From: an uncultured archaeon
GTDB taxonomy: Archaea; Asgardarchaeota; Thorarchaeia; Thorarchaeales; Thorarchaeaceae
Length of the DNA stretch: 32,000 bases
Reading direction: 5' to 3'
Assembly (NCBI GenBank): GCA_964354495.1
Contig: CAYHAA010000001.1
Location: 278,075 to 310,074, forward strand
Part shown: piece after piece, positions 10,660 to 12,992 of the stretch
Numbering within the stretch: the stretch's first letter is position 1
Layout: every line of letters starts with the position of its first letter
The notes under the pieces: generated by a model
Told to the model about the DNA's origin: nothing
The model's input: the letters and a program-made list of their open reading frames with translations, nothing else
Databases searched by the model: none
Made by a program: the position numbers and the translations under genes

Positions 10660-11724
10660 ATGGCGAAGAATATTTTGATCACTGGGGATACAGTGACAGG
10701 AAAAACGATGGTTGCGATTGCTCTGGCAAGCAAACTCAGAGCTGAAAAGAAATCCGTTGGCTACTTCAAGCCATCAGGCATCAAGAGTTATATCCATAGC
10801 ACATCCGACGAAGACGTGGATGAGGACGCTGCGGTCATGAAAGAGATTCTTGGCATGAAAGAGCGTTTGAGTTGCATCTGCCCAATAGTACGTCATATGT
10901 CAAGCTATGACGAATTGATTCGTATTGGGAAAGAGAAGCTGAAGCAGAAAGTGCAGACATGCTATGCAAAGATTGCAAAGAATCACGATTATGTAATCAT
11001 TGAAGGAGAGAAGTCTCCTTGGTATCTGATGCACGTTGACCTCTCCACCCTCGATATCGCCAGGGATTTGGGAGCCACGGTCATTTGCCTAGTCAATTTT
11101 CCTGATATTGCGGCCATTGATGATATTCTCCTTCAAAAAGAACTCTTCACCAGATATGGCACATCGAGAATAGGAGTTGTTCTCAATCTCGTTCCTCCCA
11201 TGCTAAAGAAAGTCGTTAACGAGAATATTCGTCCATTCCTGGAAGAGCAAGGAATGGTATTCTGTGGTGTTCTATACAACAATAGAGAGCTGTTCAGCCC
11301 TACAGTTGGCGAAATCATGCGGGGGTTAGAAGGGGAGATGGTCATTGGGATGGACAAGATGGACCTTCTCATCGACAAATTCATCGTTGGTAGCATGGCT
11401 CCTGAGAATGCACTGAAGTGGTTCCGTGAATCGAAGGACAAGGCTGTAATCACAAGTGGCGATAGGACGGACATCTGTCTTGCTGCCCTGGAAACTGATA
11501 CGAATCTTCTGATTCTCACGGGTGGCGTGGGTCCCGATATTGCCACTCTGACCAGAGCCCGCGAACTCGGTGTACCAATCATGATGACCGCTTTGGATAC
11601 CTATGCCACGAGCCAAGTTGTTAACGAACTGGTTGGCACTGTGACTGTTGATAACAAGGAGAAGATCGCTGCCGTAGAGAGAATAGTCGGAGAAGCTCTG
11701 TCGATAGAGGATCTCGACCTCTAG
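10660..11724 (+). CDS. Phosphotransacetylase N-terminal-like protein (BioD-like P-loop plus DRTGG domain; no PTA catalytic domain)
   Basis: TGDTVTGKT, VGYFKP, IIEG, ITSGDRTDI and LILTGG. It starts 2 nt after acd, a known gene pairing. Confidence 0.9.
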   Translation: MAKNILITGDTVTGKTMVAIALASKLRAEKKSVGYFKPSGIKSYIHSTSDEDVDEDAAVMKEILGMKERLSCICPIVRHMSSYDELIRIGKEKLKQKVQTCYAKIAKNHDYVIIEGEKSPWYLMHVDLSTLDIARDLGATVICLVNFPDIAAIDDILLQKELFTRYGTSRIGVVLNLVPPMLKKVVNENIRPFLEEQGMVFCGVLYNNRELFSPTVGEIMRGLEGEMVIGMDKMDLLIDKFIVGSMAPENALKWFRESKDKAVITSGDRTDICLAALETDTNLLILTGGVGPDIATLTRARELGVPIMMTALDTYATSQVVNELVGTVTVDNKEKIAAVERIVGEALSIEDLDL

Positions 11725-11744
11725 GGTTGACAACAGCTGCAAGA

Positions 11745-12090
11745 GACTTGGACAAAGTTGGACAGGTGCTTATATAGTCCAGTACAGACCAATCCTGTGA
11801 GGATGACCTGACATGAACTCTGTCCTCACGGAGTCGAGCCCAGTGCCGTTTCTTGGGCGGACAGCACTCTGATGTCCAAGATTGTCCAATTAACAATGAA
11901 CGGTTCAGTACCATGGGAAAGGGAGGGAGCAATATTGCTCCCGATCTAAGACAAATCGAACGTACAATCGCCGGGAGGAGCCCTTGTACGTTCAATGCCG
12001 GAATCTGCCTGCCTTCCATAAGTCATCTTGTATAGTTAGGCTAATACACGGTCATTATGCAGACTGTGTCCTATACATCACTCAGACCAT
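11745..12090 (+). ncRNA. Candidate structured non-coding RNA of unrecognised family
   Basis: At least six helices, including a 15/17-bp long-range stem (11748-11764 with 11873-11889), an 18-bp palindrome and a 10-bp perfect stem. Most G-U wobbles favour the + strand. No credible ORF. Confidence 0.4.
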
Positions 12091-12227
12091 CTCAGCATAT
12101 TCTAGCCACTCATAAGCATGAAAAGGCGGAAAATCGGGCGACAAGGCCACTCTTTCGTTGTCCAGCAACACATTTATGCCAGCGAAAAGTTATCGATTTC
12201 TCGTATCTCAAAATTTGAGGTGAACTA

Positions 12228-12992
12228 ATGGCTTCAGATGCTGAAAAGTCGGAGGCTGCCGGTGAAGCAATGGACTCTACGAAGGCTGAACGAGAACTTG
12301 AGTCCTTGAAGTGGATCCGTGAGCGGCGCTCCATTAGGGAGTTCACTGGTGAAAAAATACCAGATGAGCATATTGAGTTGATCCTCGAAGCGGCGAGGCA
12401 TGCTCCCAGTCCTGAGAACATGCTTATGATTCGTTTCGTTGTGATTCGTGATGATCAGGACACGAAGGTGTTTCTTGCTGATATAGCCCAAGAGATGGCT
12501 CAAACCGCTTTTGGTGGGGCACCCTTTGAGCTCACAAGTGGTCGAAACTGGTTCATAAACGACCCTTATAGGGCCGCTGTCTATGCCCGGCTTCGAGACG
12601 GTGAGTTGTTCCGTTATCCTGAGAAGAGCGATACAGTGATAATCGTGTGCGCGAGCGATGTTTGGACTGATGCAGGTTACCTGTATGAGAATGACCTCTT
12701 TGGTTCTGTCGTGTCTGGAATGGCCATTATGAACATGTGGTTGACAGCTACAGAACTGGGATATGGCTGCGGCTATGAGGCTCTCGTCTGTTCAGATCCC
12801 CGTCATGCTGAACTGATTCGTGACAGACTTGGGATTCCTCCCATCTGGAAACCTATCACTGCATTCTGTATTGGAAAGAGGATTTCGCCACGAGCTCTTG
12901 GTCCGAGCAGACCTCCACTTGAGGGTCTGATGTACCAGGAACGCTGGGGATTCCCGTACAAGCGCCTCGCATTCAGGAAGGAGGGCGACTAA
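12228..12992 (+). CDS. Nitroreductase-superfamily flavoprotein
   Basis: IRERRSIREF, ILEAARHAPS, MNMWLTATELGYG; insertion between the core motifs. Confidence 0.9.
   Translation: MASDAEKSEAAGEAMDSTKAERELESLKWIRERRSIREFTGEKIPDEHIELILEAARHAPSPENMLMIRFVVIRDDQDTKVFLADIAQEMAQTAFGGAPFELTSGRNWFINDPYRAAVYARLRDGELFRYPEKSDTVIIVCASDVWTDAGYLYENDLFGSVVSGMAIMNMWLTATELGYGCGYEALVCSDPRHAELIRDRLGIPPIWKPITAFCIGKRISPRALGPSRPPLEGLMYQERWGFPYKRLAFRKEGD

What the first reader, a model, noticed from the sequence alone, without database searches (positions are those of the whole stretch)
11745..12090. Densely structured ~350-nt non-coding stretch: candidate novel RNA
Seen, in the only large gene-free gap: (i) long-range stem TTGGACAAagTTGGACA (11748-64) with TGTCCAAgaTTGTCCAA (11873-89), 15/17 bp, extended by GGTGCT/AGCACT. 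(ii) Enclosed helices GTGAGGATG (11797-805)/TGTCCTCAC (11821-29) and GCCCAG/TTGGGC (11838-58). (iii) 18-bp palindrome GGGAGCAATATTGCTCCC (11925-42). (iv) GAACGTACAA/TTGTACGTTC 10-bp stem (11958-93). (v) TGTATAG/CTATACA enclosing ACACGGTC/GACTGTGT (12029-77). Most G-U pairs work on the + strand. I could not match it to RNase P, SRP, 5S, an intron or a riboswitch consensus. Inference: an uncharacterised ncRNA, a cis-regulatory leader of the lipid operon, or a MITE-like element.
Basis: partly seen in the sequence, partly recalled or inferred. Interest (0 to 1): 0.7.

Follow-up and report, generated by a model that had tools for sequence, protein, structure and literature searches.

The report
Mini-transposon beside a conserved small-RNA gene
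The flagged stretch is two unrelated things side by side: a recently inserted 177-base gene-less copy of an IS607-type jumping element that carries a guide-RNA scaffold, and an older single-copy folded RNA element on the opposite strand that is kept throughout one family of Thorarchaeia (Asgard archaea) and matches no described RNA family.

Summary

(A) Window 11728-11904 is one copy of a multicopy 177-212-nt miniature element, with 20 full-length copies in this genome. It is absent from the same site in a sister species. It inserts next to AGGG(T) and ends in ACGG(T). Its ends match an autonomous IS607-type element in the same genome (serine-recombinase TnpA plus TnpB). Its right half is homologous to the stretch at the 3' end of tnpB genes where the omega (guide) RNA lies. 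This is a known kind of element, and this scan has noted mini-IS607 copies before on other DNA.

(B) Window ~11905-12092 is single-copy and syntenic. It was found in 68 of 87 genomes of the class and gave only weak hits elsewhere in the phylum. Two hairpins (11925-42, 11958-93) covary strongly, and the wobble pairs fit the minus strand only. A TATA-like box lies a fixed 20-23 nt upstream on that strand. The best reading is a small-RNA gene of about 90 nt with an invariant CUCCCGG loop. It is not a leader of the lipid operon.

Rfam gives no match. No RNA run was available, so expression is untested.

The parts
11722..11727 (+). Target motif TAGGGT at the left junction (AGGG plus T). It overlaps the TAG stop codon of the upstream DRTGG-domain gene (10660-11724).
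   Evidence: An A precedes GGGT in 19 of 22 MITE-type left ends and in 4 of 4 autonomous-type left ends. Two empty sites in the sister genome G012 keep AGGAT / AGGGT.
11728..11904 (+). 177-nt IS607-type miniature element with no ORF. The boundary is ambiguous by up to 4 nt because GGTT is repeated at both junctions (11725-28 and 11902-05).
   Evidence: 28 blast matches, 36 nhmmer hits and 33 CM hits in the own genome. Depth is 3- to 27-fold that of the flanks, with loose ends at 11723 and 11904, in public contigs.
11748..11764 (+). Left subterminal repeat, TTGGACA twice.
   Evidence: Inverted copy at 11873-89. The same motif lies in the left ends of the autonomous elements on contigs C24, C22, C17 and C46. 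Only 2 of 14 pairs show double changes.
11770..11778 (+). Conserved TATA-like box CTTATATAG inside the element. It is a possible promoter reading into the guide-RNA part (inferred).
   Evidence: Columns A49 T50 A51 T52 are invariant or nearly so in the 18 copies. It resembles the tRNA-gene TATA boxes of this genome.
11797..11871 (+). Hairpins P2 (11797-11829), P3 (11829-34 with 11866-71) and P4 (11838-58) of the element, the proposed omega-RNA scaffold.
   Evidence: Consensus fold. 6 of 19 pairs in these helices show double changes and 92.6-95.2% of cells are paired per helix. P4 and the sequence after it lie at the 3' end of tnpB ORFs on C24, C17 and C46.
11873..11904 (+). Right subterminal repeat (TGTCCAA twice) and the right-end tail TTAACAATGAACGGT, which ends in ACGG(T).
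   Evidence: The tail is nearly invariant in the 18 copies. The same end follows tnpB in C24, C17 and C46.
11905..11924 (+). Flank that would serve as the guide of an omega RNA read from this copy (inferred). On the minus strand the same bases are the C/U-rich tail after hairpin H1.
   Evidence: Its position relative to the right end follows the IS607/TnpB logic (passages of 10.1101/2023.11.20.567912).
11925..11942 (-). Hairpin H1 (GGGAGCA/UGCUCCC) of the conserved element B.
   Evidence: 6 bp with 97.7% of cells paired. 3 pairs show double changes, mostly from one genome whose stem is almost wholly swapped.
11958..11993 (-). Hairpin H2 of element B: a 10-bp stem and a loop with an invariant CUCCCGG (CCGGGAG at 11971-77 on the + strand).
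   Evidence: 9 of 10 pairs show double changes. A.C against G.U counts on the plus strand are 24 against 3. The loop motif is seen in 37 of 37 sequences.
11994..12015 (-). Unconserved spacer of fixed length between the TATA-like box and H2.
   Evidence: 20-23 nt in 37 of 37 sequences, with 0.19 bits per column against 1.0-1.45 in the neighbouring parts.
12016..12023 (-). TATA-like box ACTTATGG (minus strand), the putative promoter of the small RNA.
   Evidence: 1.45 bits per column. It resembles the CTTTATG / CTTATAAG boxes that lie 23-25 nt upstream of tRNA genes in this genome.
12024..12092 (.). Block conserved in sequence (CTTGTATAG, GCTAATAC and others) with no supported structure. It is either a putative upstream control region or the 5' part of a longer RNA.
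   Evidence: 1.13 bits per column. The stem prediction has 62 A.C and 36 other mismatches among 473 cells. z is -0.91 / +0.81.
12166..12227 (+). The nitroreductase gene's own promoter-like box (CAACACATTTATGCCAGC, 12166-83) and its Shine-Dalgarno sequence GAGGTGA (12217-23), ahead of the ATG at 12228.
   Evidence: Conserved across the family at about -50 from the start codon.

Best explanation
The stretch is a composite of two units.

(A) Window 11728-11904 is a non-autonomous, protein-less derivative of an IS607-family transposon. It inserted at an AGGG(T) site, right at the stop codon of the upstream gene.
- It keeps the left end. This holds two TTGGACA repeats, which are probably binding sites for the serine-recombinase transposase, and a TATA-like box.
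- It keeps the right end, which carries the scaffold of the TnpB guide (omega) RNA and stops at ACGG(T).
- Inferred: it is moved in trans by the IS607 TnpA encoded elsewhere in the genome. Its RNA, extended into the flank, would guide TnpB to the empty AGGG-flanked site.

(B) Window ~11905-12023 is an independent small-RNA gene on the minus strand.
- A TATA-like box at 12023-12016 is followed by a 22-nt spacer.
- Next comes hairpin H2 (11993-11958) with the invariant loop CUCCCGG, then a U-rich linker, hairpin H1 (11942-11925) and a C/U-rich tail.
- The conserved block 12024-12092 is probably its upstream control region.
- What the RNA does is not shown. The most likely mechanism is pairing of its C/U-rich loop and tail with purine-rich ribosome-binding sites (inferred).
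For: (A) Copy number and spread
- The first ~180 nt of the gap give 28 blast matches in the own genome.
- 20 copies match the full covariance model at 85 bits or more.
- The family is found in 15 of 26 sampled genomes of the taxonomic family and 0 of 124 outside it.

(A) Insertion site
- The site is empty in G012, whose flanks are 93-94% identical. A second empty site matches the C4 copy.
- None of 52 other loci upstream of the nitroreductase gene holds the element.
- Junctions read AGGG|T...ACGG|T. This matches the published IS607 logic: target and TAM TGGG, right end TCGG, a GG core (passages of 10.1101/2023.11.20.567912).

(A) Autonomous relative on contig C24
- Its left end carries the same GGGT and TTGGACA motifs.
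- Its TnpA matches NF033518 'IS607 family transposase' at 160.5 bits against a cut-off of 110. The domain order is HTH followed by Resolvase.
- It encodes a TnpB-like protein (PF07282). Its right end is 84% identical to the window copy over 67 nt.
- Internally deleted intermediates of ~370 and ~480 bp lie on C17 and C46.

(A) Structure
- 94.6% of cells are paired. 24 cells show double changes against 7.4 +/- 2.8 in shuffles.
- G.U outnumbers A.C 56 to 24, which favours the + strand.

(B) Distribution
- There is one copy per genome in 25 of 28 genomes of the genus.
- The core model hits 68 of 87 genomes of the class. The own genome has one hit, at 87.9 bits on the minus strand.

(B) Structure on the minus strand
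- 95.5% of cells are paired and 12 of 18 pairs show double changes.
- 62 cells show double changes against 16.4 +/- 3.1 in shuffles (0 of 500 shuffles reach this).
- Slid controls give 30-53% paired.
- One pair runs A-U 11, G.U 15, G-C 10.

(B) Independence from the neighbouring genes
- The unit stays put where the upstream gene differs (11 of 37 loci) or where 0.76-1.07 kb is inserted before the nitroreductase gene (6 of 37 loci).

(B) Promoter signature
- The spacer has a fixed length and is unconserved. The box resembles the tRNA-gene promoters of this genome.
- Folding z is -3.94 on the minus strand.
Against: General
- No RNA run holds this DNA, so neither RNA is shown to exist.

(A)
- Folding energy of the element is unremarkable (z -1.2 to -2.0).
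- The copies are paralogues, so shared descent inflates the shuffle control.
- The long-range stem has only 2 of 14 covarying pairs. It may be a pair of DNA repeats rather than an RNA helix.
- The TnpB relatives score below NCBIfam's TnpB cut-off (74.8 against 100 bits), and their activity is untested.
- The MITE left end matches the autonomous left ends only weakly (nhmmer E about 6e-4 to 1e-3). The true parent may therefore be a different element.

(B)
- No clear oligo-T terminator follows H1.
- H1 is almost invariant.
- The TATA-like box is a weaker match than the promoter of the neighbouring gene.
- In the upstream block, a small GTAT/ATAC pairing shows G.U only on the plus strand in 11 sequences.
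- The 10-mer complementary to the loop is not enriched in the genome: 2 sites, one of them the element's own plus-strand copy, against about 6 expected.
Confidence: 0.68

Rival explanations
1. Element B is a cis-acting RNA on the plus strand: a leader or riboswitch of the nitroreductase/beta-oxidation operon, or a 3' UTR or terminator structure of the upstream DRTGG-domain gene.
For: It lies between two co-directional plus-strand genes. The plus strand of 11905-11996 also folds well (z -3.07). The plus-strand model R1 finds it in relatives. A few G.U-only pairings occur on the plus strand in the 12024-12092 block.
Against: Hairpin H2 has 24 A.C mismatches on the plus strand against 3 G.U. The nitroreductase gene has its own conserved promoter-like box downstream of B. 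B persists without the DRTGG gene in 11 of 37 loci, and is separated from the nitroreductase gene by 0.76-1.07 kb in 6 of 37. The predicted plus-strand 3' domain has 98 of 473 unpaired cells.
Confidence: 0.1
2. Element B acts as DNA, not RNA. Its palindromes and conserved boxes would be binding sites for a transcription factor that controls the flanking metabolic genes.
For: The 18-bp palindrome is almost invariant in sequence. The 12024-12092 block is conserved in sequence without structure. The position lies between two metabolic gene sets.
Against: In H2, complementarity is conserved rather than sequence: 9 of 10 pairs show double changes, with strand-specific wobble intermediates. Protein-binding DNA does not require this. 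H1's loop length varies by 1-2 nt, and one genome replaces the stem almost entirely while keeping a hairpin.
Confidence: 0.1
3. The miniature element is a domesticated guide-RNA gene: a host-kept omega RNA that directs a TnpB-type protein to regulate neighbouring genes, and no longer a mobile element.
For: It carries a conserved TATA-like box in front of the scaffold. Related work describes domesticated TnpB-guide pairs (title and abstract of PMC10705468 in the listing).
Against: This copy is absent from the same site in the sister species and from 52 other loci. Copies sit at unrelated sites. Near-identical copies break the assembly at six contig ends. All of this indicates recent mobility, not a fixed host gene.
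Confidence: 0.04
4. The whole 11745-12090 stretch is one novel structured RNA of about 350 nt.
For: The whole gap folds better than shuffles (z -3.22).
Against: The left 177 nt are a recent insertion absent from relatives that keep the right part. The two parts favour opposite strands.
Confidence: 0.01

Closest known systems
IS607-family transposons and their protein-less miniature derivatives (PATE/MITE-like mini-IS that still encode an omega RNA)
   Same: - The serine-recombinase TnpA matches the NCBIfam IS607 model above its cut-off in the autonomous relative.
- tnpB lies next to the right end.
- The target is AGGG and the right end ACGG, parallel to the published TGGG and TCGG with a GG core (passages).
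- No long target duplication is made.
- Gene-less copies that would need TnpA and TnpB in trans are described for IS605-type elements (passages of PMC10055086; PMC3119063).
   Different: - The host is an Asgard archaeon.
- The linked TnpB-like proteins are long (504 to 568 aa or more) and divergent, below the NCBIfam TnpB cut-off.
- The copies keep a TATA-like box in front of the scaffold.
- Mobility and guide function are untested here.
TnpB omega RNA (right-end guide RNA of IS200/IS605 and IS607 elements)
   Same: The homologous sequence overlaps the last codons of tnpB and runs to the transposon's right boundary. It has a multi-hairpin scaffold with some covariation. The adjacent flank would be the guide.
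   Different: No Rfam family matches. The 5' limit of the RNA is unknown. In the miniature copy, the partner of the stem next to the guide comes from the left end, so that stem may be a DNA-level inverted repeat instead.
aCas1-associated Asgard TnpB loci (Cas1H-Asgard-1/-2 of Altae-Tran et al. 2023, PMC10691335)
   Same: The TnpB on contig C1 of this genome is 46% identical to the C24 TnpB. Earlier scan notes place the C1 TnpB in that group. Its 3' flank gives a weak match to the same right-end model (39.2 bits). The paper notes a single conserved T in front of a hypervariable, guide-like region (passages), as seen here after ACGG.
   Different: The window's element groups with copies linked to an IS607 serine recombinase, not to Cas1. 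The downstream GTTCACTCA motif the paper reports was not seen after the copies I looked at. The paper's SI Fig. S4 was not available to me.
Trans-acting regulatory small RNAs with C-rich loops that pair with ribosome-binding sites (for example RsaE/RoxS of Firmicutes; recalled, not from a call)
   Same: Element B has a short two-hairpin layout, an invariant C/U-rich loop (CUCCCGG) and a C/U-rich tail.
   Different: No homology, expression data or target is shown. The resemblance is a lead from memory, not a test.

Membership tests
IS607-family non-autonomous (miniature) element | Dispersed multicopy sequence too short to encode a protein | tested here: met
   20 full-length copies of 177-212 nt. 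No family match for the ORFs that overlap it.
IS607-family non-autonomous (miniature) element | Ends homologous to those of an autonomous element that encodes an IS607-type serine transposase | tested here: met
   On C24, the left end, tnpA (NF033518, 160.5 bits against a cut-off of 110), tnpB and the right end are all present. The left-end match is weak (E about 7e-4).
IS607-family non-autonomous (miniature) element | Insertion at a GG-containing target without a long duplication, and a precise empty site in relatives | tested here: met
   2 of 2 empty sites examined. Only GGT(T) is shared by the two junctions.
IS607-family non-autonomous (miniature) element | Excision and integration by TnpA supplied in trans | not testable with these tools
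   Needs an excision assay.
TnpB omega RNA | Encoded at the 3' end of tnpB and ending at the right transposon boundary | tested here: met
   The right ~70 nt of the element align to the 3' ends of tnpB ORFs on C24, C17, C46, C1, C3 and C7.
TnpB omega RNA | Conserved secondary structure supported by covariation | tested here: inconclusive
   8 of 33 pairs show double changes and 94.6% of cells are paired. The copies are paralogues, and z-scores are only -1.2 to -2.0.
TnpB omega RNA | Transcribed, bound by TnpB, and guides cleavage next to the TAM | not testable with these tools
   No RNA holder was listed.
Any Rfam family (riboswitch, RNase P, SRP, 5S, snoRNA and others) | Score at or above the family's gathering threshold | tested here: not met
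   0 matches in the whole window. With relaxed thresholds only chance-level hits appear (E 0.7-8, 11.6-18.4 bits against cut-offs of 38-56).
Cis-regulatory leader/riboswitch of the downstream operon | Lies in the 5' UTR on the gene's strand, between promoter and start codon | tested here: not met
   Wobble pairs fit the opposite strand. The gene's promoter-like box lies downstream of the element. The two are separated in 6 of 37 loci.
Independent small non-coding RNA gene | Conserved structure with compensatory changes, own promoter, kept independently of its neighbours | tested here: met
   The promoter is inferred from sequence only.
Independent small non-coding RNA gene | A discrete transcript | not testable with these tools
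   No RNA run available.

The most novel reading that the evidence does not exclude
Element B encodes an undescribed small RNA found throughout this family of Thorarchaeia. Its invariant CUCCCGG loop and C/U-rich tail would pair with purine-rich ribosome-binding sites. That would make it the first trans-acting translational regulator RNA family defined in Asgard archaea. Separately, the miniature IS607 copies, each with its own TATA-like box, would form a dispersed set of self-expressed guide RNAs for the genome's large TnpB nucleases.
Probability: 0.25. Interest if true: 0.65.

Novelty: new member of a known kind. Interest (0 to 1): 0.42.

Why it matters
The miniature element is ordinary in kind. 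It still yields the left and right ends, the target motif AGGG(T) and a candidate guide scaffold for a large, untested Asgard TnpB lineage. That information is what a bench test of those nucleases would need.

The conserved element is a new candidate RNA family. It is single-copy, carries strong strand-specific covariation and is confined to one family of Thorarchaeia. Very few regulatory RNAs are described for Asgard archaea, and this one can be tested directly once strand-specific RNA data exist.

The case also shows how a recent insertion next to an old structured element can pass for one long RNA.

Tried and rejected
RNA evidence
- Rfam at gathering thresholds over the whole window gave 0 matches. 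Relaxed thresholds on 11500-12400 gave only chance-level hits.
- RNA runs: no RNA holder was listed, so expression could not be examined.
- Laying DNA contigs of 4 runs showed no joint across the element. It only confirmed the repeat depth and the ends.

Coding and transposase checks
- Small ORFs in the gap (11621-12019 minus, 11853-12035 plus, 12110-12421 minus) have no Pfam match. The first two run across the insertion, so coding was rejected.
- A Y1 (IS200/IS605) transposase was not found in the genome: 0 matches at 97.7% completeness. The peel-and-paste model was set aside in favour of IS607.

Element B
- A replication-origin or protein-binding reading was considered and ranked low because of the strand-specific compensatory changes.
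- The plus-strand 3' domain predicted for B did not hold up: 98 of 473 cells are unpaired.
- Scanning the genome for sites complementary to the loop found 2 sites for the 10-mer, one of them the element's own plus-strand copy, against about 6 expected from length alone. There is no enrichment.
- Outside the family, the core model gave 5 weak hits (E 7e-4 to 8e-3) in 124 genomes. I treat these as chance.
- A trimmed alignment (A10) misaligned the 5' strand of H2 and was not used.

Earlier notes and literature
- This scan's earlier notes hold nothing like element B by sequence.
- A full-text search for Asgard / non-coding RNA / covariation / Thorarchaeota listed 8 of 9 papers, none on such an RNA judging by title and abstract.

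Full report
**Observation.** The gap between the DRTGG/AAA_26-domain gene (10660-11724) and a nitroreductase-family gene (12228-12992) is 503 nt. The gap as a whole folds better than dinucleotide shuffles: z -3.22 on the plus strand, -2.05 on the minus strand. Rfam gives no match at gathering thresholds anywhere in the window. Relaxed thresholds give only chance-level hits.

**The left part is a repeat.**
- A search of the window's own genome with the gap found 28 matches, all to its first ~180 nt.
- nhmmer with a profile of the copies gave 36 hits. 19 are complete copies of 176-212 nt. Three left halves and three right halves sit at contig edges. Several hits are decayed copies, and six are right-end pieces directly behind TnpB-like genes.
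- A covariance model (R2) found 33 matches, 20 of them over the full model at 85 bits or more.
- In public contigs, word depth over 11710-11914 is 113-886 against about 33 in the flanks of run X1. Loose ends pile up at 11723 and 11904.
- The family occurs in 15 of 26 sampled genomes of the taxonomic family (11 of 14 genera) and in 0 of 124 genomes of the rest of the phylum sample.

**It is an insertion.**
- In G012, a genome of the same genus, the flanks are 93-94% identical and contiguous. The site reads ...CTCTAGGATTCCGTG..., where the window has ...CTCTAGGG TTGAC...GAACGG TTCAGTA....
- That makes a 177-nt insert, with GGTT repeated at both junctions.
- A second copy (contig C4) has an empty site in G012 that reads GGAAGGGT|CAGTC.
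- None of the 52 other loci upstream of nitroreductase homologues that I examined carries the element. Those were 52 of the 80 loci returned.
- An A precedes GGGT in 19 of 22 left ends. The right end ...AATGAACGGT is nearly invariant.

**What kind of element.**
- No Y1 transposase was found in the genome, but there are two serine recombinases.
- The one on contig C24 matches NCBIfam's 'IS607 family transposase' above its cut-off (160.5 against 110 bits). Its domain order is HTH then Resolvase.
- Upstream of it lies a left end, AGGGT|GG...CTTTGACAAAGTTGGACA..., that resembles the miniature element's left end.
- Downstream lies a 504-aa TnpB-like gene (PF07282; guided_TnpB 74.8 bits, below the cut-off of 100). 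Its last codons and 3' flank are 84% identical to the window's right end over 67 nt.
- Two internally deleted copies of ~370 and ~480 bp (C17, C46) link the full element to the miniature ones.
- The junction logic parallels the bench-tested IS607-family IStron: AGGG target and ACGG right end here; TGGG target/TAM, TCGG right end and a strict GG core there. I read passages of preprint 10.1101/2023.11.20.567912.
- Protein-less IS605-type derivatives that still encode omega RNAs and depend on TnpB in trans are already described. I read passages of PMC10055086 and PMC3119063.
- This scan has also noted mini-IS607 copies on other DNA.

**Structure of the element.**
- 94.6% of cells are paired. 8 of 33 pairs show double changes. 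24 cells show double changes against 7.4 +/- 2.8 in shuffles.
- G.U outnumbers A.C 56 to 24, which favours the plus strand.
- The long-range stem itself has only 2 of 14 covarying pairs. It consists of two TTGGACA repeats at each end in inverted orientation. I therefore read it as the subterminal inverted repeats of the transposon, probably transposase binding sites, rather than a proven RNA helix.
- A TATA-like box (CTTATATAG, 11770-78) is conserved between the left repeats and the hairpins. If it is active, transcripts would start near 11800 and carry hairpins P2-P4, the tail and the flank. This is inference.

**The right part is old and conserved.**
- The blast search in relatives showed that window 11916-12077 is kept in synteny.
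- In the alignment, the two hairpins stand out.
- A model (R1) finds exactly one copy in 25 of 28 genomes of the genus and in 19 of 26 sampled family genomes. It finds none in 124 other genomes of the phylum sample.
- A core model on the minus strand (R3) hits 68 of 87 genomes of the class: 67 of 85 in the family and 13 of 17 genera. Outside the family it gives 5 weak hits in 124 genomes.
- Record titles of the relatives name Candidatus Thorarchaeota. This agrees with earlier notes of this scan.

**Strand and structure of B.**
- On the plus strand, hairpin H2 has 24 A.C mismatches and 3 G.U pairs. Read on the minus strand, the A.C cells become G.U.
- On a minus-strand MAFFT alignment of 37 sequences, 95.5% of cells pair and 12 of 18 pairs show double changes.
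- 62 cells show double changes against 16.4 +/- 3.1 in shuffles (0 of 500 shuffles reach this). Slid controls give 30-53% paired.
- One pair reads A-U 11, G.U 15, G-C 10.
- The loop motif CUCCCGG is present in all 37 sequences.
- One genome replaces H1 with an almost wholly different stem.
- Folding z for 11905-11996 is -3.94 on the minus strand.

**B is an independent unit.**
- It stays in place in 11 of 37 loci where the upstream gene is a different one. It also stays in 6 of 37 loci where 0.76-1.07 kb separates it from the nitroreductase gene.
- That gene has its own conserved box (AATACATTTATGC type) about 50 nt before its start codon.
- On the minus strand, a TATA-like box (ACTTATGG, 12023-12016) lies 20-23 nt before H2 in all 37 sequences.
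- The spacer carries 0.19 bits per column, against 1.45 for the box and about 1.0-1.1 on either side.
- tRNA genes of this genome have similar boxes 23-25 nt before the mature 5' end.
- Taken together, this is the layout of a promoter, a spacer and a transcribed small RNA.

**Limits.** No RNA run was available. Both RNAs, the promoter, the 3' end of the small RNA and all activities are therefore inferred. The function of B is unknown. Pairing of its C/U-rich loop with ribosome-binding sites is a hypothesis, and a simple count of complementary sites shows no enrichment.

**Verdict.** The finding is real but composite. One half is a new member of a known kind of mobile element. The other is a new candidate small-RNA family of Thorarchaeia on the opposite strand.

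Noticed in passing
L131:312-481 and L131:589-761: One Thorarchaeota relative carries two tandem copies of element B upstream of its nitroreductase gene (51.0 and 74.1 bits).
   Followed up: no
L032:1914-2876 (minus strand), inside the C24 IS607-type element: A 320-aa ORF with no Pfam match fills the gap between tnpA and tnpB on the opposite strand. It may be cargo, or a spurious frame over a decayed N-terminal part of tnpB. The related C1 TnpB has about 200 more N-terminal residues.
   Followed up: partly
L060, L062, L063, L064, L065, L066 (between B and the nitroreductase gene): In several genera an extra gene with its own TTTATGC-type box is inserted between element B and the nitroreductase gene. 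In L064 and L066 its product starts with a CIFCG-type cysteine motif.
   Followed up: no
window 12127-12140 and aligned positions in relatives: A short TTACAAAAT-like motif recurs between element B and the nitroreductase promoter box in many genomes of the genus. Its role is unknown.
   Followed up: no
G000 contig ends: C25:3-117, C36:14-54, C8:122123-122163, C42:2-94, C6:152723-152815, C35:10552-10606: Six contig ends stop inside near-identical copies of the 212-nt subfamily of the element. The true copy number is therefore higher than the number assembled.
   Followed up: partly
G000 C7:73844: ARAGORN calls a tRNA-SeC gene in this genome, which suggests selenocysteine use. Only 14 tRNAs were found in that run.
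   Followed up: no
G000 C1 (minus strand) near 371812: This is the only other perfect CCGGGAGGAG site in the genome. It lies 7 nt before a GTG, like a ribosome-binding site, and is a possible target of the B RNA loop.
   Followed up: no
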